Origin: an uncultured Bacteroidia bacterium
Lineage (GTDB): Bacteria; CAIWAD01; BS150m-G50
Direction: 5' to 3'
DNA: 64,000 bases
NCBI GenBank assembly: GCA_964501185.1
Contig: CAZCRT010000007.1
Location: forward strand, 16,581 to 80,580
Position 1 is the first letter of the stretch. Each line of letters opens with the position of its first letter. Below the pieces are notes generated by a model, which was not told the origin of the DNA, did not search any database, and saw only the letters and a program-made list of their open reading frames with translations. Made by a program: the position numbers and the translations under genes. Positions 30,419 through 60,302 of the stretch are shown piece by piece.

Positions 30419-30832
30419 GTGACTTCAACTGTATCCAGCCGTCTGCGACGTGAACTGAAGACCCTGACAATAATGATCAGGCGCTATTGTAATCATCATC
30501 ATGAGCATGACGATGGTGTATCCGGCCTCTGCCCGGAATGTGAGACATTACAGTATTACGCATTACAACGGATCGAGAAGTGCCCCTTCCTCAAACAGGA
30601 AAAACCCGAAGATAATCAGGTAGCGCTTCAGCATGAGCCATCGCAAAATAACAAGACCTGCTTTGAAGTTGAGAAACCACCCTGTGATCAGTGCCCTGTC
30701 CACTGTTATCGGCCGGAAATGCGGGAACAGATCAGGCAGGTAATGAGGTGGACCGGACCCCGGATGTTGTGGCGGCATCCCTGGCTGACACTGTTCCACC
30801 TCTGGAATGGTAGACGTTATAAGGGACAGTAG
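30419..30832 (+). CDS. YgbA / nitrous-oxide-stimulated promoter family protein
   Basis: RELKTL..MI..YC, CPECE.L..YA..RIEKCP, CPVHCY, IRQVMRWTGPRML. Confidence 0.88.
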   Translation: MTSTVSSRLRRELKTLTIMIRRYCNHHHEHDDGVSGLCPECETLQYYALQRIEKCPFLKQEKPEDNQVALQHEPSQNNKTCFEVEKPPCDQCPVHCYRPEMREQIRQVMRWTGPRMLWRHPWLTLFHLWNGRRYKGQ

Positions 30833-30948: not shown

Positions 30949-31100
30949 TAATGGAGTTGAGACAGGCGACCGATCGCTACAGGAGGTAAAAACTCAAGTG
31001 CGTGATAACTTTCTCTTATTCTGCTAATGGAGTTGAGACAGGCGACCGATCGCTACAGGAGGTAAAAACTCAAGTGCGTGATAACTTTCTCTTATTCTGC
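30949..31100. repeat. Perfect 2 x 76-bp tandem duplication
   Basis: 30949-31024 is identical to 31025-31100 (TAATGGAGTTGAGACAGG...CTTATTCTGC). Confidence 0.95.
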
Positions 31101-31207: not shown

Positions 31208-32869
31208 TTGATCTGTTCACCACTGTTGAATAAAACCGACAACCAAGAGCTGGAATTGAAGTATAAAGTTCGCAAAAACAAGACAAAAGAAACCGATATT
31301 GATCTGTCCTTCCTGCAGCAGGAGATTAATACCGACCTGCTGGAACAGCTTTACGACATTGTAGCCACTCATCCAGAACATATCGCTGTTCGCTGGCATG
31401 AAGAACAGCTGAGCTACGGTATGCTGATGCAGCGAGTGGAACAAACAGCTCTGAAGCTGCGCGAGCAGGGTGTTAACGAACAATCACGTTTACTACTGTT
31501 TCACCCGAACAGTATTGAATATGTTATCCTGTTACTGGCCGGCCTAACTACCGGGGCAGTGTTAATTCCAATCGACTATAAACTGACCCCCGATCTGCTT
31601 CAGCGTGTTATTCATGAAGCAGCACCCAATTTTGCCAGTTATCCGGCTCACATGGCAGATCGCATCCGCCGTGAAGAGCACATGTTTGCCAGAGACATCC
31701 GTTTCCTGATATCTGATGCTGATGGAGAGCCGGGACCGCAGGCAACCCACATCAATACAGACTTTCTGGAGCAGGCTGCGCCCCGGGTAAATCAGCATGT
31801 TCAAACCCGTATTGTGTATTTCTATCGCAACCAGCGTGGCAGGATGATCGGTGCGGAGTTCCGGGTGAATAAGCTGGTATCGCAGGCTCACAAAGTGCGT
31901 CGCCGGTTTTCGATCTTCAAGTCAGATCACCTGCTCTGTCAGATGTCGCTGGCACATTACGTAGTGCTTTCCAATATGCTGTTTCCATCCCTGCTTTCCT
32001 CAGCCACTCTGCTATTGCTGGACCGTGAAGAGGATGACAACCGGGTGGATGAGATCATCGAGCGCTACAGACCACACCTGATGGTCAATACGCGCAAGTA
32101 CTATTACATTTTGCTCAAGCATTTACGTGATAGCGGTCGCAAACACAAAATCGTGAATTGTGTCATGATTTACGATGGCACCAGACTGGACTGGATGGAG
32201 GAATTTGAGGAGCAATTCAGAGCGCATCTGCTTCCGGGCCTCGCCTCCCCTTTGATTGCCGGTTTTGTAACACTGACCCTGCCTTTTCTCTGCCGGGTGG
32301 AGGGTTCCGTCGGGACACCGATGATCGGGATCGAGTACCATATCATTAACAGGGATGGAGAAGTACTACCTGCCGGGGAGTGGGGAGAACTGGTGATTGA
32401 TTCACCCTACGGACTGGATAATTTCTACAACAATACGGACCTCCAGTTCGAGAAGGCTGTTGAAGACTACTATCGTACGCATCAGATGGCCCGGCAGGAT
32501 GCCGGTGGTTATCTTTACCTGGCAGATGAAGTACAGGATGTTATCCGGATGCGTGGATTCGATATCTCTCCTCTTGAAATAGAGGAGGAATTGATGAAGC
32601 TGCCTGGTGTGGATGATGCTGTTGCCACAAATGGATTTACCCGTCGTAATGAGACGATTATTGCTTTCGTGAAGCTGGAGGAAGGGTCACAGCTTGCCAG
32701 CGATGAGGTTCTCCACGAGGCCTGTCAGGCAATGCCCGGCTATCTGCATCCGGAACAGGTTCTGCTGGTTGAAGAGATCCCGTACAATAACGAAGATCGC
32801 AAGATGCGTCTCGAATTGAAGAATAGAATGGAAAATAAGATAACAGGAGGTTCAAGTGAGTCAGTTTAA
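31208..32869 (+). CDS. Class I adenylate-forming (AMP-binding, acyl-CoA synthetase-like) protein with degenerate catalytic motifs
   Basis: The fold is recognisable (LSYGML..RV..A, GAVLIPID, SVGTPMIG, GELVI, GYLYL..DVI..RG..ISPLEIEEEL), but the P-loop and TGD motifs are absent. The start is uncertain. Confidence 0.75.
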   Translation: MICSPLLNKTDNQELELKYKVRKNKTKETDIDLSFLQQEINTDLLEQLYDIVATHPEHIAVRWHEEQLSYGMLMQRVEQTALKLREQGVNEQSRLLLFHPNSIEYVILLLAGLTTGAVLIPIDYKLTPDLLQRVIHEAAPNFASYPAHMADRIRREEHMFARDIRFLISDADGEPGPQATHINTDFLEQAAPRVNQHVQTRIVYFYRNQRGRMIGAEFRVNKLVSQAHKVRRRFSIFKSDHLLCQMSLAHYVVLSNMLFPSLLSSATLLLLDREEDDNRVDEIIERYRPHLMVNTRKYYYILLKHLRDSGRKHKIVNCVMIYDGTRLDWMEEFEEQFRAHLLPGLASPLIAGFVTLTLPFLCRVEGSVGTPMIGIEYHIINRDGEVLPAGEWGELVIDSPYGLDNFYNNTDLQFEKAVEDYYRTHQMARQDAGGYLYLADEVQDVIRMRGFDISPLEIEEELMKLPGVDDAVATNGFTRRNETIIAFVKLEEGSQLASDEVLHEACQAMPGYLHPEQVLLVEEIPYNNEDRKMRLELKNRMENKITGGSSESV

Positions 32870-34940
32870 ACCAGAGGATATCCGCAATGTGGTTGTTATA
32901 GGCCACGAAGGAAGTGGCAAAACCATGTTGACAGAAGCATTCCTCAGGAGTATGGGTGAAATCATCCGTATGGGGTCGATCGAGGATGGCTCAACCGTTT
33001 GTGATCATAATCAGGAAGAGATAGACCGCACGAAATCGATCAGTCTGGCGCTCTGTCAGGGACAGCACAAGGGTAAGAAGATCAACCTGCTGGATACACC
33101 CGGATTCGCTGAGTTTTCCGGAGAGGTGCTGACCGGTGTCCGTGTGGCTGATTCCGCTGTAGTAACTGTTTCCGCACAGAACGGCGTAGAAGTCGGTACG
33201 GAACTTTTCTGGGAGCAGGCCAGGCAGCGTGATCTTTCGGGACTGTTTGTGATCAATCATCTCGATAAAGAACAGGCGAATTTTGACAGTACTCTGGACG
33301 AGCTGAAGCAGGTTTTCGGCAGCGCCATTCTCCCATTACAGATTCCGGTGAACGCTGGCAGTGAGAACTTTGACACAGTTATTGACCTCGGGCTTATGAA
33401 GCAGCTCAAGTTTACCACTGATGGTTCCGGAGATTACACAGAGGAAGAACTCAGTGGTGATGCCAGGTCCCAGGCTGACGAGATGCTGGAGGCAATGACT
33501 GAAACTGTCGCCGAAAGTGATGACGAACTACTCGAAAAATTCTTTGAAGCCGGCGAGCTGACTCCTGACGAATTCAAGGCCGGTCTGGAAAAGGGAATTG
33601 CGACTGGCAAGATTTACCCGGTTCTCTGTTCTGTAGCTTCCCGTAATCGCGGCCCCCGTCGGATTCTGGACATGCTGGCGGATTACTTCCCCGCGCCCAG
33701 CGACCGTCCCGGTGAAGTTGTGAAATCAGGGGACAGCGAGAAAGAGATCAGTTGTGCACCCGATGGTGAGCTTTCCGCGATGGTTTTCAAGACTGTTGTG
33801 GAAAAGCATGTGGGTGAGCTTTCCTTTTTCCGTGTTTTTAGTGGTAAGGCTACTACAGGTGCTGAAGTCAAGAATGTTTCCCAGAAGGGAGATACTACCA
33901 AATTTGGGCAGCTGTTTTATCCTGCCGGTAAGAATCGCAAGGATACCGATGCTGTTATCGCCGGTGATATCGGTGTGACTGTCAAGATGAAAAGTTGCCG
34001 CACAGGTGATTCACTGATTCCGAAGAGTGGGAACTATACCTTTGCACCGGTGAATTTCCCTGAAACGGTACACGATGAAGCGATCAAGGCTGTAACCGAA
34101 GGTGATGAGGAAAAGATATCCACCGGCCTGCAGGCGCTGATGGCTGAGGATCCATCCTTCCAGGTTATTCACAGTGCCGAGCTGAATCAGATTATCATTG
34201 CCGGGCAGGGTGAGATGCAGCTGCAGATTCTGGTCGAGAAGCTGAAGACCCGTTATGGAGTTGAAGCCAGGCTCAGCGAACCGGGTGTTCCATTCCGTGA
34301 AACAATTACCGCCAGGGCTGATGAGAAATACAGGCATAAAAAGCAGTCCGGTGGCGCCGGGCAGTTTGCTGAGGTCTGGATGCGGATCGAGCCGATGGAA
34401 CGTGGCGGTGATTTTGAATTCGCCTCCGAAGTCGTCGGTGGTAATATCTCCCAGCCTTTCATCCCCGCTATCGAGAAGGGTATCAAGCAGGTCATGAACC
34501 AGGGTATCGTTTCCGGTCACAAAGTTGTTGATGTAAAAGCAATTGTCTACGACGGTAAGGAACACCCGGTGGACAGTAAGGATATCGCTTTCCAGATTGC
34601 CGGCCGGGAGGTTTTCAAGATGGCAGTCAAGAAGGCCAAACCGATCCTGCTGGAGCCGATCTATGATATCCGGGTCAAGGTGCCGGAAGACTACATGGGT
34701 GATGTGATGGGCGACATTTCCTCCCGCCGTGGAAAAATCCAGGGTATGGAAGCGGAAGGACGCTATCAGGTCATCAATGCCAAAGTGCCGCTGGCAGACC
34801 TGTATCGCTACTGCACACACCTGCGTTCAATGACACAGGGGCGCGGTATTTTCTCCCGTACTTTCTCACACTATGAGAAGATGCCGGAAGAAGAGGCGAA
34901 GAAGGTTGTCGCCGCCTATGAATCCAGCCAGGTGGAGTAG
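32856..34940 (+). CDS. fusA: Elongation factor G-like protein (EF-G2 type paralog)
   Basis: 694 aa with the EF-G domain layout (KKQSGGAGQFA, PILLEP, DISSRRG, LRSMTQGRG). G-motifs are variant: GHEGSGKT, DTPGF, NHLD. Confidence 0.9.
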   Translation: MSQFKPEDIRNVVVIGHEGSGKTMLTEAFLRSMGEIIRMGSIEDGSTVCDHNQEEIDRTKSISLALCQGQHKGKKINLLDTPGFAEFSGEVLTGVRVADSAVVTVSAQNGVEVGTELFWEQARQRDLSGLFVINHLDKEQANFDSTLDELKQVFGSAILPLQIPVNAGSENFDTVIDLGLMKQLKFTTDGSGDYTEEELSGDARSQADEMLEAMTETVAESDDELLEKFFEAGELTPDEFKAGLEKGIATGKIYPVLCSVASRNRGPRRILDMLADYFPAPSDRPGEVVKSGDSEKEISCAPDGELSAMVFKTVVEKHVGELSFFRVFSGKATTGAEVKNVSQKGDTTKFGQLFYPAGKNRKDTDAVIAGDIGVTVKMKSCRTGDSLIPKSGNYTFAPVNFPETVHDEAIKAVTEGDEEKISTGLQALMAEDPSFQVIHSAELNQIIIAGQGEMQLQILVEKLKTRYGVEARLSEPGVPFRETITARADEKYRHKKQSGGAGQFAEVWMRIEPMERGGDFEFASEVVGGNISQPFIPAIEKGIKQVMNQGIVSGHKVVDVKAIVYDGKEHPVDSKDIAFQIAGREVFKMAVKKAKPILLEPIYDIRVKVPEDYMGDVMGDISSRRGKIQGMEAEGRYQVINAKVPLADLYRYCTHLRSMTQGRGIFSRTFSHYEKMPEEEAKKVVAAYESSQVE

Positions 34941-53934: not shown

Positions 53935-54978
53935 ATGCCTCGCGCAAGCCTCAAGCAGCTGTTACTGGCTGGTTCCCACTTTGGACATTTGACCCGCCGC
54001 TGGAATCCCAAGATGGAAAAGTACATCTTCATGCAGAAGAATGGGATTCACATTATTGATCTCAAGAAGACTCAGTTTAAACTGGAAGAAGCCTGTAACG
54101 CCCTGCAGCACATTGTGCAGCGTGGTGATGACGTGCTTTTTGTCGGAACCAAACCGCAGAGCCGGGAAATGATTCAGGACGAAGCAACCCGGGTCGATAT
54201 GTTCTATGTTGAGGAGCGATGGCTCGGTGGCATGCTTACCAATTTCCGGACTATTCGTAATTCCATCCGTAAGCTGGATGAATTTGACGAGATGGAAAAG
54301 GACGGAACCTACGATAAGCTGAATAAAAAAGAAATTCTCCAGGTAGAGCGCCAGAAAGCCAAGCTGTTAAAGGTTCTCGGCGGTATGCGCAAAATGAAGC
54401 GTCTGCCCGGTGCTGTATTCGTGATTGATATAAACAAAGAGAGTATCGCAGTCCACGAAGCGCAGAAACTGGGAATTCCGGTTTTTGCTATTGTGGACAC
54501 TAATGCTGATCCCACCACAGTGGAATATCCCATCCCGGCTAACGATGATGCTTACAAATCTATCGCTCTGATCACACATGTGGTTGCAGATGCGATTGAG
54601 GAAGCCAAACTGTTGCGTCAGGAGAAAGTTGAGCTGGAAGAGGAGTTGAAGGAGAAGCAGGAGCGCAAGCAGAAGAAAGCGGCTCCCGCACAGAAACCGG
54701 TACGTCGTCGCCGCAGCACCAAGCCTGCTGGTGAGGAAAAATCAGCTGTCGCCAAGGACGAGGTTGAGGAGAAGAAACCTGCTAAAAAAACTGCTGTGAA
54801 GAAGGACGAGGCTGAGGAGAAGAAGCCCGCTAAAAAAGCTGCTGTGAAAAAGGACGAGGCTGAGGAGAAGAAGCCCGCTAAAAAAGCTGCTGTGAAAAAG
54901 GACGAGGCTGAGGAGAAGAAGCCCGCTAAAAAGACTGCTGCTAAAAAAGACGAGACTGGCGCGAAGGAAGAGAAATAA
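53935..54978 (+). CDS. rpsB: 30S ribosomal protein S2 with a long Lys/Glu/Ala-rich C-terminal extension
   Basis: AGSHFGHLTRRWNPKM, FVGTK, RWLGGMLTN, IVDTNADP, PANDDA. Confidence 0.98.
   Translation: MPRASLKQLLLAGSHFGHLTRRWNPKMEKYIFMQKNGIHIIDLKKTQFKLEEACNALQHIVQRGDDVLFVGTKPQSREMIQDEATRVDMFYVEERWLGGMLTNFRTIRNSIRKLDEFDEMEKDGTYDKLNKKEILQVERQKAKLLKVLGGMRKMKRLPGAVFVIDINKESIAVHEAQKLGIPVFAIVDTNADPTTVEYPIPANDDAYKSIALITHVVADAIEEAKLLRQEKVELEEELKEKQERKQKKAAPAQKPVRRRRSTKPAGEEKSAVAKDEVEEKKPAKKTAVKKDEAEEKKPAKKAAVKKDEAEEKKPAKKAAVKKDEAEEKKPAKKTAAKKDETGAKEEK
54754..54954 (+). repeat. 48-bp (16-codon) tandem repeat, about 4.2 copies, inside rpsB
   Basis: KDE(A/V)EEKKPAKK(A/T)A(V/A)K units start at 54754, 54802, 54850, 54898 and 54946 (partial). 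Confidence 0.95.
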
Positions 54979-54992
54979 CCGCGAACGCTGAG

Positions 54993-55091
54993 CTGAAGCG
55001 ATTGCGCTTTCTGGTATATCGAGACGTAATAGAATCGAAAACCTGAAGCGATTGAGCTTTCTGGTATAAGTAGGAACGTAATAGAGTCGAA
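54993..55091 (+). repeat. Two ~50-bp direct repeats in the rpsB-tsf spacer
   Basis: CTGAAGCGATTG(C/A)GCTTTCTGGTATA...ACGTAATAGA(A/G)TCGAA starting at 54993 and 55043. Confidence 0.85.
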
Positions 55092-55110
55092 TAATTGAGG
55101 ATTCTGATAA

Positions 55111-57293: not shown

Positions 57294-59090
57294 ATGGCCC
57301 TCAATAATAGAAATTTCTCCATCATTGCCCATATCGACCATGGGAAATCCACAATTGCAGACCGGCTCCTGGAGCTGACCGGGACTGTTGCTCCCTCAAA
57401 AATGCGCAAGCAGGTGCTCGACGACATGGAGCTCGAGCAGGAGCGTGGCATCACTATCAAGGCACATGCTGTCACCATGGCTTACAGGGCTGACGATGGT
57501 AATGAGTATACCCTGAACCTGATCGACACACCGGGACATGTTGACTTCAGTTATGAAGTTTCACGCAGCCTGGCTGCCTGTGAAGGGGTGTTGCTTGTGG
57601 TTGACGCCACGCAGGGAATTGAAGCACAGACTCTCTCCAACCTCTATCTGGCGCTTGAACACGATCTGCAGATTATTCCAATTATCAACAAAATAGACCT
57701 CCCCAGCGCACAGCCGGATGTTGTTCGGCATCAGATTGTAGAACTGCTCGGTTGTGAGGCAGAAGAGGTGATAGCAGTTTCCGCCAAGACAGGTGAAAAC
57801 TGTCACGACATTCTGGAAGCGGTTGTCAGATCAACGCCACCACCTGTCCTTCGGGATGATGATCCCCTGCAGGTATTGATATTCGATTCTGTATTTGACA
57901 GCTATCGTGGTGTGATCGCTTTTGTAAGAGTGATGGCAGGCAGGATACAGAAGGGAGATCTGGTTCGACTGTTCTCCAACGAGCGCAAATTCAGTGTTGA
58001 TGAGGTCGGCATACTGCAGCTGGAACGGAAACCAGATGAACAGCTGACATCAGGTGATGTGGGTTATGTGATAACCGGTGCCAAAGATGTCAAGGATATC
58101 AAGGTCGGGGATACCATGACCCATTTCCGTGACGGCGCTGTGGAAAGACTCCCCGGCTATCAGGATCCAAAACCGATGGTTTTTGCCGGGATTTATCCGG
58201 TCAATACTGATGACTATGAACTGTTGAGGGATTCTCTTGCTAAACTGGTACTCAACGATGCTTCATTGACATACATCCCCGAGACATCGACAGCACTCGG
58301 ATTTGGATTCCGTTGTGGTTTTCTCGGCCTGTTGCATATGGAAATCATCCAGGAGCGGCTGGACCGGGAATATGAGATAGATATTATCACTACGGTTCCC
58401 AATGTCGAATACCGTCTCAAACTGCCTCAGGAAGACTGGCGTGTGATCGATAATCCCGCAGAGTTTCCCCGTCAGGCAAAGGTGGATGATGTGGAGGAAC
58501 CTTACATCACTGCCTCAATTATCACGCACAGCGACTATATCGGCAACCTGATGAAACTGACGATGGAGCGGCGCGGTGTCTATATCTCTACCGAGTACAT
58601 TGACCAGCAGCGAGTGAATCTGAAGTATGAGCTTCCACTGGCTGAAGTTGTTTTCGATTTCTATGACCGCCTGAAAACCGTTTCCCGGGGTTATGCTTCG
58701 CTCGATTATGAACTGACTGATAATCGAAGTGGCAAACTGGTACGGTTGGATATTCTACTCAATGGAGATCCGATTGACGCACTCTCCATGATTGTGCATC
58801 AGGATCGGGCGTTTGAGTGGGGGAATAAGCTGACTATCAAGCTGAAGGAGCTGATACCAAGGCAGCAATTTGATGTTGCGGTGCAGGCGGCTATCGGAAC
58901 CAAGATTATCGCTCGCACAACTGTGAAAGCGCTACGCAAGAATGTTACAGCCAAGTGCTATGGTGGTGATATTACCCGTAAACGCAAACTGCTTGCCAAA
59001 CAGAAGGCCGGTAAAAAGCGGATGAAACAGGTTGGCAATGTGGAAGTACCGCAGGAAGCGTTTTTGGCCATGCTAAAAGTCGAACGGTAG
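57294..59090 (+). CDS. lepA: Elongation factor 4 (LepA)
   Basis: [73 protein letters not shown]. Confidence 0.99.
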
Positions 59091-59446
59091 GCACAGAAAT
59101 GGTAGTGCATAGCGAGGGCGATTAATAGTGTAGCAGGTTTGAGACTGCTGACAGTCGATGGTTTGGCGATGTTAAAAGTAGAGCGCTAGTCTCAAGAACT
59201 ATCACGCATGGCCAAAGCGATTGAATCGATGGGTCGTTCTAAATATCTGACTGTCGATGGTTTAGCGATGCTAAAAGTAGAACGGTAGGTTCAGAAACTA
59301 TCGTTCATCGCTAAAGCGATTGAGCCTTCGGGTTGTTCATTGAGTGGTAGACTCGCTGGCCTCGCCATGCTTAAGGTGGAGCGGTAGGCACAGAAGTGAT
59401 AGTGTATGTCAAGGGCGATTGATAGTGTAGCAGGTTTGAAACTGTG
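59064..59446 (+). repeat. Degenerate array with an exact 99-bp period, each unit carrying a copy of the lepA 3' end (LAMLKVER*)
   Basis: LAMLKVER* blocks start at 59064 (native), 59163, 59262 and 59361. A partial unit follows to about 59446. Confidence 0.9.
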
Positions 59447-59540
59447 ATTATTGACCATTATTCAAGGAACAAAAAACAGTTGTCATGCATCTTATTAGCG
59501 TAGCAACAGGCATAACAACTGAACAGATAGCGGAGCAAAT

Positions 59541-60302
59541 GTGAACATCATCAGAAAATACCTCGATTGGCGCAGGCGGCGGAAGATATTTCTGAAGGAG
59601 CGGGCCAAACGTCGTGGCCCATTGCTTGAATGGCTGGATACGATCGTATCAGTGACAGTCACCGTCTTTCTTATTCGCACAGTAGCGGTAGAAGCCTATC
59701 GGGTACCGACCGGTTCAATGGAGAAGACAATTCTACCTGGTGATTTTCTGCTGGTGAATAAATTTCTCTACGGAATCCGCACACCGGAGTGGATTGGTGT
59801 TCCCTTCACTGATTTTGGATTTGACCTGCCGGTCTACCGTTTTCCCTCGTTTGTTGAGCCGGATCGGGGTGATGTCATCGTTTTCAAATATCCCCGCGAC
59901 CCTGATGTAAACTTCATCAAGCGTTGTGTTGCCCTGCCGGGGGATACCCTGGAGATACGTAACAAGCAGCTCTACATCAACGGTGACATGAGCGCACTGG
60001 ACTCACATGCACAGTTTGTTTCGGATCGTATCATGCCCGCCGGGTATAATGATCAGCGGATCTCACCGGCAGGAATGGGAAACAAAGATAACTATGGACC
60101 GGTGATTGTACCACCGGATCAGTTTTTTATGATGGGTGACAATCGGGATAACAGTGAGGATTCACGATTCTGGGGATTTCTTCCACGAGAAAACATTGTT
60201 GGTAAGGCCTGGATCATATATTTTTCCTGGGAACAACGTTATTCACCCTGGCTGCTCTACAAGAAGATTCGCTGGAGCCGCCTGCTGGATGTGATGAGAT
60301 AA
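59541..60302 (+). CDS. lepB: Signal peptidase I
   Basis: VPTGSME.T...GD.LLVNKF, RGDVIVF, FIKRC, FMMGDNRDNSEDSRFWG. Confidence 0.97.
   Translation: MNIIRKYLDWRRRRKIFLKERAKRRGPLLEWLDTIVSVTVTVFLIRTVAVEAYRVPTGSMEKTILPGDFLLVNKFLYGIRTPEWIGVPFTDFGFDLPVYRFPSFVEPDRGDVIVFKYPRDPDVNFIKRCVALPGDTLEIRNKQLYINGDMSALDSHAQFVSDRIMPAGYNDQRISPAGMGNKDNYGPVIVPPDQFFMMGDNRDNSEDSRFWGFLPRENIVGKAWIIYFSWEQRYSPWLLYKKIRWSRLLDVMR

What the first reader, a model, noticed from the sequence alone, without database searches (positions are those of the whole stretch)
59063..59414. Each lepA-array unit forms a stop-codon-enclosing hairpin with compensatory base changes
A 10-nt arm over the L-A-M codons pairs with an arm 45 nt downstream in all four units: TTTGGCCATG/CATAGCGAGG (8/10, two G-U), TTTGGCGATG/CATGGCCAAA (9/10), TTTAGCGATG/CATCGCTAAA (10/10) and CCTCGCCATG/TATGTCAAGG (8/10). 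Compensatory swaps occur at position 4 (G-C vs A-T) and positions 1-2 (T-A vs C-G). A conserved fold in RNA or ssDNA is how integron attC sites and HUH-transposase ends are recognised. It could also modulate termination or lepA-lepB coupling.
Basis: partly seen in the sequence, partly recalled or inferred. Interest (0 to 1): 0.72.

Follow-up and report, generated by a model that had tools for sequence, protein, structure and literature searches.

The report
Conserved hairpins in lepA-end repeat array
Just after the lepA gene of an uncultured marine bacterium lie four 99-base copies of the gene's last nine codons, each followed by a matching reverse-complement partner; the fold-back is real and conserved in three sister species, but it is still open whether a recombinase or the mRNA machinery reads it.

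Summary
At 59063-59414 four 99-nt units each carry a 10-nt arm over the L-A-M codons and a complementary arm 45 nt downstream (8, 9, 10 and 8 of 10 pairs). The same array lies between lepA and lepB in three sister lineages of Candidatus Delongbacteria and in none of 67 other FCB-group loci. Across 12 units the stem pairs in 90% of cells. RNAalifold finds it independently, and four positions change on both sides. The number of independent events is small, and the stricter covariation measures are not significant.

Three further findings came out. Internal units have a second, outer helix. The sense strand folds better in 11 of 11 units. The copied gene ends ('heads') differ almost only at synonymous sites, while the mid-tail and wobble positions drift at the neutral rate.

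No attC core, Rfam family, terminator, recombinase gene, cargo or copy elsewhere was found.

My leading reading (0.35) is cargo-less, att/attC-like recombination modules moved in register, so that each head takes a turn as the real lepA end. The rivals are a sense-strand mRNA hairpin (0.30), a neutral quasi-palindrome kept up by replication template switching (0.20) and MLKVER mini-ORF leaders (0.08). Interest is moderate.

The parts
57294..59090 (+). lepA (elongation factor 4); its last nine codons plus the stop form 'head 1'.
   Evidence: ORF. It is 100% identical to P0001 and 87% identical to a Candidatus Delongbacteria LepA; Pfam gives GTP_EFTU and LepA_C.
59063..59161 (+). Unit 1. The 5' arm is 59063-59072 (T+Leu-Ala-Met), the stop is 59088-59090 and the 3' arm is 59108-59117 (CATAGCGAGG). 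This is a chimeric unit: a T-type head with a C-type tail, a weak stem and no outer helix, because the sequence before the head is lepA coding sequence.
   Evidence: The stem is absent from the MFE fold. The same 13-nt tail arm GTGCATAGCGAGG occurs in L095 unit 1 and L011 unit 2.
59162..59260 (+). Unit 2. The 5' arm is 59162-59171, the stop is 59187-59189 and the 3' arm is 59207-59216 (9 of 10 pairs). The outer helix is 59152-59157 with 59218-59223.
   Evidence: Its 3' arm is also a perfect 11-nt complement of head 1 (59063-59073 with 59206-59216; repeat I2), and the whole-array fold uses that pairing.
59261..59359 (+). Unit 3. The 5' arm is 59261-59270, the stop is 59286-59288 and the 3' arm is 59306-59315 (10 of 10 pairs). 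An inner helix pairs 59280-59288 with 59298-59306, and the outer helix pairs 59254-59258 with 59319-59323. This is the best hairpin of the array.
   Evidence: repeat I3; z = -3.17, 0 of 200 shuffles; DNA fold, z = -3.97. Strain SNPs lie at 59246, 59282 and 59305.
59360..59444 (+). Unit 4. The 5' arm is 59360-59369 (C-type, CCTCGCCATG), the stop is 59385-59387 and the 3' arm is 59405-59414 (TATGTCAAGG, decayed). The tail is a paralogue of the unit 1 tail and is cut short before a fifth head.
   Evidence: family D1, 85% identity to unit 1; the stem is not in the MFE fold.
59445..59540 (+). Unique spacer upstream of lepB, with its own 17-nt inverted repeat (59477-59493 with 59505-59521). It is conserved in lineage X.
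   Evidence: repeat I1.
59541..60302 (+). lepB (signal peptidase I), which in relatives without the array directly abuts or overlaps the lepA stop.

Best explanation
Each hairpin is the conserved core of a 99-nt module. A module is lepA's last nine codons plus the stop (the 'head') followed by a 71-nt 'tail'; tail nt 18-27 are the reverse complement of the L-A-M codons. In internal units, tail nt 29-33 also pair with the last bases of the preceding tail.

Shown here: the modules have stood in register between lepA and lepB since before four Delongbacteria lineages split. The two helices and the first two positions of each head codon are conserved, while wobble positions and the mid-tail drift at the neutral rate. 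Heads and tails have been re-assorted by exchanges inside the loop.

Inferred: the modules are cargo-less recombination units. They resemble the att-site repeats that integrative elements leave at the 3' end of a target gene, and they work like integron attC sites in that the signal is a folded single strand. Rare, conservative, in-register recombination at the hairpin moves whole modules, so every head takes its turn as the real end of lepA. This exposes all heads to selection for LAML(K/R)VER-stop without homogenising them. On this view the hairpin defines the register and the strand of the exchange. The recombinase is unknown and lies outside the sequence available to me.
For: (1) The array is a set of direct repeats of a gene's 3' end, which is the classical mark of site-specific integration. 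lepA is a documented prophage integration site in Salmonella enterica (PMC3603311).

(2) Non-first heads are codon-constrained. The pairs W2-W4 and Y1-Y2 differ at 8 and 9 sites, all synonymous, including AGG/CGT/CGA and TAG/TGA/TAA. Five or six random substitutions would leave the peptide intact in only 2e-4 to 5e-5 of trials. The tails show no codon periodicity.

(3) Between species, head third positions (0.49 identity) and the mid-tail (0.45) sit at the neutral level; lepA 4-fold sites are 0.42-0.57 identical. The arms, the post-arm and the pre-head are 0.68-0.73 identical. Mid-tails are collinear between species: W1~X1, W4~X3 and W2~Y1, scoring above the 99th percentile of the null (2), though W4~X3 and W2~Y1 do not exceed the null maximum of 6. 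The units are therefore old and under selection in place. Any copy-based exposure to selection (unequal crossover, gene conversion) would also homogenise them, which leaves conservative rearrangement or translation in place.

(4) The unit boundary is constant, 1 nt before the Leu codon, at the foot of the helix.

(5) Head/tail chimeras exist. Head 1 is perfectly complementary to tail 2, and tail 1 belongs with the C-type head as seen together in L011 unit 2.

(6) The architecture has two helices, an asymmetric internal loop and a large variable loop.

(7) Unit number differs between species: 4, 4, 3 and 3. The only large indel, 50 nt in L095, lies in the neutral mid-tail.

(8) Within the W population, all SNPs in 12.7 kb fall in repeats, 2-3 of them in the array, and five contigs break inside the array.
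Against: No recombinase of any Pfam family lies in the 64-kb window or in the 6-10-kb flanks in four lineages. There is no cargo. No attP-like copy occurs anywhere else. There is no attC core.

Unit order and number are identical in every full-length contig of each species.

In lineages Y and Z the first-unit stem is the longest (13-14 bp) and reaches into lepA-specific sequence upstream of the duplicated head. That looks like adaptation in place, or templated copying, rather than an imported site.

The last head is followed by a decayed tail, not by a naked original gene end.

A 99-bp double-stranded circle is implausible, so a single-strand pathway would be needed. The 35-nt spacing of the arms does not fit a tyrosine-recombinase core.
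Confidence: 0.35

Rival explanations
1. The stems are sense-strand RNA hairpins in the lepA-lepB transcript. Each unit folds into a stem-loop enclosing a stop codon. The stack would protect the 3' end of lepA mRNA, provide a processing site, or uncouple lepB translation from lepA, which abutted lepB in the ancestor. The array would be a tandem duplication of that element.
For: All units are co-oriented with transcription and lie in an operon spacer. The sense strand folds better than the antisense strand in 11 of 11 units, with summed energies of -257.7 against -186.6 kcal/mol; 7 G-U cells are tolerated against 3 C-A cells. Covariation and RNAalifold support the helix. The real lepA end carries the strongest stems in Y and Z, 13-14 bp, matched to lepA-specific bases. 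Relatives without the array have no spacer at all.
Against: This reading does not explain the codon-like conservation of the non-first heads. The first-unit stem, where the function should matter most, is degenerate in W and X. There is no terminator-like T run and no Rfam family. The strand bias may partly reflect G+T-rich composition.
Confidence: 0.3
2. The structure has no function. The array is a neutral tandem repeat in a genome prone to them, and the inverted repeat is a quasi-palindrome that perpetuates itself. Template switching during replication copies one arm from the other, producing apparently compensatory changes and extended perfect arms in single events.
For: Template switching is known to create and maintain hairpins and to homogenise inverted-repeat arms (PMC8794818 and PMC8604942). 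In Z unit 1 a cluster of 3 substitutions plus 1 indel within 14 nt turns the tail arm into a perfect 14-nt complement of lepA, running past the ancestral arm on both sides. Y unit 1 extends by 3 bp on the loop side. Tracts like these are what a copying event gives. The window holds three other tandem duplications. The array is a SNP hotspot.
Against: The arms, the outer helix, the post-arm and the pre-head are conserved well above the neutral level between species, whereas the mid-tail is not. The C-type tail arm GTGCATAGCGAGG is identical in three species whose 4-fold sites differ by about 50%. The heads are codon-constrained. Neutral sequence would not behave in these ways.
Confidence: 0.2
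3. Each non-first unit is a leader-like mini-ORF, ATG-Leu-Lys/Arg-Val-Glu-Arg-stop. Its start codon sits in the 5' arm and its stop in the loop. Translation by re-initiation after lepA termination would open successive hairpins and relay ribosomes towards lepB.
For: The ATG is invariant in all 14 heads and a stop is always kept, although its identity varies. The strongest codon signal lies in the six codons from the ATG onwards. Constraint weakens distally: the two non-synonymous changes (X3, Y3) and the decayed tails are in distal units. Translation in place is the most direct way to obtain coding constraint without homogenisation.
Against: There is no reason for the peptide itself to be conserved, or to share K in lineages W and X and R in lineages Y and Z with LepA. 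The start lies inside a helix in a G+C-rich context. There is no conserved longer ORF, and frames are not kept, with periods of 98, 99, 100 and 107 nt. I know of no precedent for tandem leaders of this kind.
Confidence: 0.08

Closest known systems
Integron attC sites and integrase-less attC clusters (CALINs)
   Same: Tandem, co-oriented imperfect hairpins of about 60-80 nt. Each has two helices separated by an unpaired spacer and a large variable loop. Structure is conserved more than sequence. The unit boundary lies at the foot of the hairpin, and the first junction is a hybrid site.
   Different: There is no R''/R' core (RYYYAAC, GTTRRRY), no IntI, attI or Pc within reach, and no cassette ORFs; only about 25 nt lies between hairpins. 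The loop holds a copy of a housekeeping gene's last codons and its stop. The array occurs at one locus in one small clade.
att-site direct repeats left by integrative elements at the 3' end of a gene, including tandem accretion and cis-mobilisable remnants (for example ICESt1/ICESt3 and CIMEs at fda, or prophages at lepA in Salmonella)
   Same: Direct repeats reproduce the last ~27 nt of the target gene so that the gene stays intact. Several such repeats lie in a row, with chimeric junctions. lepA is a known target (PMC3603311; the CIME and accretion concept is described in PMC7563491 and PMC5812530, which were listed but not read in depth; the ICESt1/ICESt3 and fda details are from my own knowledge).
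   Different: There is no integrase and no element body. The 'remnants' are a uniform 71 nt and homologous to one another. They are conserved across species rather than decaying. The distal-most head has a decayed tail rather than the native downstream sequence.
REP/BIME-type intergenic palindromes
   Same: Imperfect palindromes stacked in tandem just after a stop codon inside an operon; these are known to affect mRNA stability and translation of the upstream gene (from my own knowledge).
   Different: REPs are dispersed in hundreds of copies and associated with RAYT transposases. Here there is a single locus, no other copy in 64 kb, and one arm lies inside the coding sequence.
Quasi-palindrome correction by replication template switching
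   Same: Arms become perfect and longer through clustered changes, giving apparent compensation without selection (PMC8794818, PMC8604942).
   Different: It is a mutational process, not a function. It does not explain the conservation of the outer helix and flanking motifs, or the codon pattern of the heads.

Membership tests
Integron attC / CALIN | Conserved core sites R'' (RYYYAAC) and R' (GTTRRRY) at the two feet of the hairpin | tested here: not met
   Neither motif occurs on either strand of 59040-59470.
Integron attC / CALIN | Imperfect hairpin of 57-141 nt with two paired boxes, an unpaired central spacer and a variable terminal loop | tested here: met
   A 10-11-bp inner helix and a 5-6-bp outer helix are separated by a 3-4 nt / 1 nt internal loop, with a 35-43-nt terminal loop. 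The resemblance is in architecture only.
Integron attC / CALIN | Integron integrase (IntI) with attI and Pc, or at least cassette ORFs between the sites | tested here: not met
   No recombinase Pfam hit in the window or in the flanks of relatives. The spacers of ~25 nt are non-coding. The rest of the genome could not be searched.
IS200/IS605 or REP-RAYT (Y1 HUH) hairpin ends | A TnpA/RAYT gene nearby, and many dispersed copies of the hairpin | tested here: not met
   No Y1_Tnp-type hit. The covariance model finds no further copy in 64 kb, with filters off, or in 82 loci.
IS110 family / bridge-RNA recombinases | A DEDD-type recombinase gene with an adjacent structured non-coding RNA | tested here: not met
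   No such gene in the window and no Rfam match.
Integrative-element att repeats at a gene's 3' end | Direct repeats that reproduce the target gene's 3' end | tested here: met
   There are 4, 4, 3 and 3 heads encoding LAML(K/R)VER-stop in the four lineages.
Integrative-element att repeats at a gene's 3' end | An integrase and element DNA between the repeats, and presence/absence polymorphism of the element | tested here: not met
   Only homologous 71-nt tails lie between the heads. There are no occupied or empty variants in any contig and no attP-like copy in the viral or metagenome scans.
Intrinsic (rho-independent) terminator | A short G+C-rich stem with a 3-8-nt loop followed by a T run | tested here: not met
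   No terminator-like sites in 58800-59700; the loops are 35 nt.
Any Rfam family | A covariance-model match at or near the gathering score | tested here: not met
   No match at gathering score in the whole window. In the array only chance-level hits were found, at E of 1.9 or more.

The most novel reading that the evidence does not exclude
The array is a cargo-less, integron-like cassette system in which the 'cassette' is the stop-codon region of a housekeeping gene. Folded 99-nt single-stranded modules would be excised and re-inserted conservatively at the end of lepA by an unidentified recombinase, so that the gene's last nine codons are periodically swapped. This would be a new class of hairpin-guided site-specific recombination, with a selfish mini-element that pays its way by always restoring the gene.
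Probability: 0.15. Interest if true: 0.8.

Novelty: new variant of a known kind. Interest (0 to 1): 0.5.

Why it matters
If the modules are recombination units, this is a minimal, naturally cargo-free system for studying how a folded DNA site is recognised and how an element can live inside the end of an essential-pathway gene without harming it. It would also point to an unknown recombinase in a barely studied phylum.

If the stems act in the mRNA, this is an unusual case in which a coding 3' end and its downstream partner co-evolve at synonymous sites.

In either case, pseudo gene-ends that lie downstream of the real stop yet evolve like coding sequence are a population-genetic puzzle. That puzzle can now be stated precisely and tested with existing metagenomes.

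Tried and rejected
(1) I first thought each array had one more head than tails, leaving a naked original gene end distally, which would favour integration. The covariance model aligns the sequence after the last head to a full-length, decayed tail (Y3 34.2 bits, Z3 25.7, X4 18.6), so I dropped that argument.

(2) I tested a model with the crossover after the head, in which tail k should match head k+1. Cis pairing is as good or better in W, Y and Z, and only X fits comparably (hand count).

(3) I tested whether the tails are coding, because in-frame translations look alike. Substitutions by codon phase are 49, 56 and 71, so there is no clear periodicity.

(4) I tested for recent allelic replacement of the lepA 3' end by a diverged lineage, which would explain the synonymous differences. 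Sliding-window divergence shows no anomaly at the 3' end.

(5) I considered gene conversion or unequal crossover as the source of purifying selection on the non-first heads. I rejected this on argument: both processes homogenise copies, and the expected ratio of synonymous to non-synonymous differences is about 1:1, against about 21:1 by my hand count in the part of the head after the 5' arm (sequences). Lineage Z, with three identical heads, does show homogenisation.

(6) Pattern scans for units outside lepA loci found nothing: three viral scans gave no hits, and the metagenome scan gave only another copy of lineage Y.

(7) Rfam gave nothing at the gathering score or at permissive E-values.

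(8) A 7-nt loop segment is inverted between units 2 and 4 (CTATCAC / GTGATAG). I judged this compatible with chance, given the number of comparisons.

(9) I considered T4 gene 60-type bypassing, read-through extensions and DGR or CRISPR analogies. I rejected them because frames are not conserved, the tails are homologous to one another, and every unit ends in a stop.
Full report
WHAT IS THERE. lepA (57294-59090, +) is followed by a 450-nt spacer and then lepB (59541-60302, +). The spacer begins inside lepA with four head-to-tail units of exactly 99 nt, starting at 59063, 59162, 59261 and 59360. Each unit has a 28-nt 'head': one base, then the codons Leu-Ala-Met-Leu-Lys-Val-Glu-Arg and a stop. 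Head 1 is the real end of lepA. Each head is followed by a 71-nt 'tail'. Tail nt 18-27 are the reverse complement of the first ten bases of the head.

WHERE IT OCCURS. The LepA protein places the window in Candidatus Delongbacteria; the closest named relative is 87% identical, from a Black Sea MAG. I recovered the locus from four lineages.
- W: this window, plus more than 20 contigs at 99.95% identity or above.
- X: 93% LepA identity, locus L095.
- Y: 87% identity, loci L011, L012, L015 and L094.
- Z: 85% identity, loci L009, L010 and L014.
All four carry the array, with 4, 4, 3 and 3 heads and periods of 98-107 nt (one of 148 nt, caused by a 50-nt insertion). The next relatives, at 77% identity, have lepA abutting lepB. 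None of 67 lepA-lepB loci from Ignavibacteria, Marinimicrobia and allied groups has a copy of the gene end downstream. A covariance model of the unit finds nothing else in the 64-kb window (filters off) or in 82 loci. Pattern scans of the viral and metagenome collections found only another lineage Y locus.

IS THE HAIRPIN REAL? In an alignment of 12 units (A2) the 10-bp helix is paired in 90% of cells. Column shuffles give 80.6 +/- 2.0% (0 of 500 reach the observed value), and sliding the partner by 1-3 columns gives 28-49%. The covariation score is 0.362 against 0.199 +/- 0.033. RNAalifold finds the same helix unaided and adds an eleventh pair. Positions 1, 2, 4 and 7 change on both sides.

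The most telling detail concerns the 'T-type' tails. They mirror the two synonymous sites (Leu and Ala third positions) of the real lepA ends of all four lineages:
- G,C for W (in tail 2 of the window);
- A,G for X (in window unit 3);
- A,A for Y;
- G,A for Z.

The caveats are as follows. The events are few and the sequences related. The two relatedness-robust measures are not significant. Five of the ten pairs hardly vary. In the 'C-type' tails (CATAGCGAGG) the base opposite the Ala wobble is always A, so it is mismatched in all five such units. Single-sequence folds contain the helix in W2, W3, X2, X3, Y1, Y2, Z1 and Z2, but not in W1, W4 or X1.

(i) Internal units have an outer helix of 5-6 bp between the end of the preceding tail (..GTCG..) and the bases just after the 3' arm (..CGAY..). 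It shows one compensatory change: G-U or G-C changes to U-A. An asymmetric internal loop of 3-4 nt against 1 nt separates it from the inner helix.
(ii) The sense strand folds better than the antisense strand in 11 of 11 units, with sums of -257.7 against -186.6 kcal/mol.
(iii) In Y and Z the first unit, at the real gene end, has the longest stems, 13 and 14 bp. In Z the stem runs into lepA sequence upstream of the duplicated head. In W and X the first unit is a chimera of a T-type head and a C-type tail and folds poorly.
(iv) The last unit always has a decayed tail.

THE HEADS BEHAVE LIKE CODING SEQUENCE. All 14 heads encode LAML(K/R)VER-stop, apart from two distal changes (X3 Ala>Val and Y3 Glu>Lys). 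Within a genome, heads differ at up to 9 of 27 sites, and all of these differences are synonymous. They include TTR/CTY Leu, AGG/CGT/CGA Arg and TAG/TGA/TAA. All W and X heads have Lys; all Y and Z heads have Arg. The tails are not coding.

Between species, head third positions are 0.49 identical and the mid-tail 0.45. That is the neutral level: lepA 4-fold sites differ by 0.43-0.58. The arms, the post-arm and the pre-head are 0.68-0.73 identical. Mid-tails are collinear between species (W1~X1, W4~X3, W2~Y1), but even more alike within a genome (W1~W4, X1~X3). The array is therefore older than the species splits. Its helices and head codons are under purifying selection where they stand, and some intra-array conversion occurs.

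This is the hard fact to explain. Fossil copies should collect about as many non-synonymous as synonymous differences. Exposure to selection through unequal crossover or gene conversion would homogenise the copies, as has happened in Z. lepA shows no sign of a recently imported 3' end.

SHUFFLING AND INSTABILITY. Head 1 of the window is a perfect 11-nt complement of tail 2 (repeat I2), and the whole-array fold uses that pairing. Tail 1 belongs with the C-type head, and the two are seen together in L011 unit 2. Exchanges inside the loop have therefore re-assorted heads and tails. Among W strains, the only SNPs in 12.7 kb lie in repeats: two in the rpsB repeat and two or three in unit 3. Five contigs end inside the array, two of them bracketing the 59282/59305 polymorphism. 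Unit order and number are nevertheless the same in every contig that spans the array.

TESTS AGAINST KNOWN KINDS. There are no attC core motifs, no Rfam family, no terminator-like site and no tRNA. Among 40 ORFs of the window I scanned, and among the annotated flanks of relatives, there is no recombinase or transposase. There is no cargo. lepA is a documented prophage attachment gene in Salmonella, so targeting of this gene end has precedent.

WEIGHING THE EXPLANATIONS.
(a) Recombination modules, 0.35. These would be att/attC-like units without cargo. This is the only reading that accounts at once for the direct repeats of a gene end, the constant boundary at the foot of the helix, the two-helix architecture, the loop chimeras, the neutral 'spacer', and heads that stay translatable without being homogenised (through conservative, in-register rearrangement). 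Against it, there is no enzyme, no second copy and no observed rearrangement, and in Y and Z the stems look adapted in place.
(b) An mRNA hairpin, 0.30. This fits the strand bias, the orientation, the operon setting and the strong stems at the real gene end in Y and Z. It does not explain the heads, or the weak first stems in W and X.
(c) A neutral quasi-palindrome maintained by template switching, 0.20 (PMC8794818, PMC8604942). This explains the extended perfect arms and the clustered changes. It probably contributes under any model, but it is contradicted by the above-neutral conservation of several tail motifs.
(d) Mini-ORF leaders (MLKVER), 0.08. This would give coding constraint in place and a proximal-to-distal gradient, but there is no reason for the peptide itself to be conserved.

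VERDICT. The attC/HUH label is not earned, although a recombination role remains the best single explanation at modest confidence. The feature is a lineage-restricted oddity with one surprising property, codon-constrained pseudo gene-ends. That property, more than the hairpin itself, is what merits follow-up.

BASIS OF CLAIMS. Sequence facts and statistics come from the cited calls. Three things rest on my own knowledge and inference, not on a test done here: the population-genetic argument about homogenisation, the statements on attC architecture, and the REP and ICE/CIME comparisons.

Noticed in passing
window 54737-54976 (inside rpsB, 53935-54978): Ribosomal protein S2 carries a Lys/Glu-rich C-terminal extension built from four 48-nt (16-aa) tandem repeats (KKPAKKAAVKKDEAEE). 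The only other strain SNPs in 12.7 kb (54828 and 54831) lie here.
   Followed up: partly
window 54985-55100 (rpsB-tsf spacer): A ~51-nt tandem duplicate, each copy with a small stem-loop (GAAGCG-ATTG-CGCTTTC). It shares the motif GAAGCGATTG with the post-arm of the lepA unit (AAAGCGATTGA).
   Followed up: no
window 30949-31100: A perfect 76-nt tandem duplication in the spacer between a YgbA_NO-family gene (30419-30832) and an AMP-binding enzyme gene (31208-32869). Together with the other repeats it suggests that this genome readily makes or keeps tandem duplications.
   Followed up: no
L095 1313-1369: Lineage X has an extra ~50-nt insertion with its own inverted repeat (TGGCCAGG...CTGGCCTGG). 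It sits in the neutral mid-tail of unit 1, just before the next head, and is the only large indel in any unit.
   Followed up: no
window 59477-59521: A 17-nt inverted repeat (CAGTTGTCATGCATCTT / AACAGGCATAACAACTG, 82% complementary) lies 20-64 nt upstream of the lepB start. The surrounding sequence is conserved in lineage X and could be a lepB leader or operator.
   Followed up: no
window 59142/3, 59281/2, 59305/6, 59344/5 and 59350/1: Five independent short assemblies (Logan and ENA) end or start at these points inside the array. Two of them bracket the linked SNPs 59282 A/G and 59305 T/A, which points to co-existing array haplotypes within single samples.
   Followed up: partly
window 59190-59288 and 59289-59387; L011 7905-8003: In three units the whole 33-codon stretch from one head's stop to the next is open in the head's frame, and the translations look alike (xQKLSxIA(K/R)AI...[13 protein letters not shown]). 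Codon-phase counts do not support coding, so this is probably nucleotide conservation.
   Followed up: yes
window 32856-34940: An EF-G-family GTPase gene, a second translational GTPase, lies 22 kb upstream of lepA and has no repeat array at its end.
   Followed up: no
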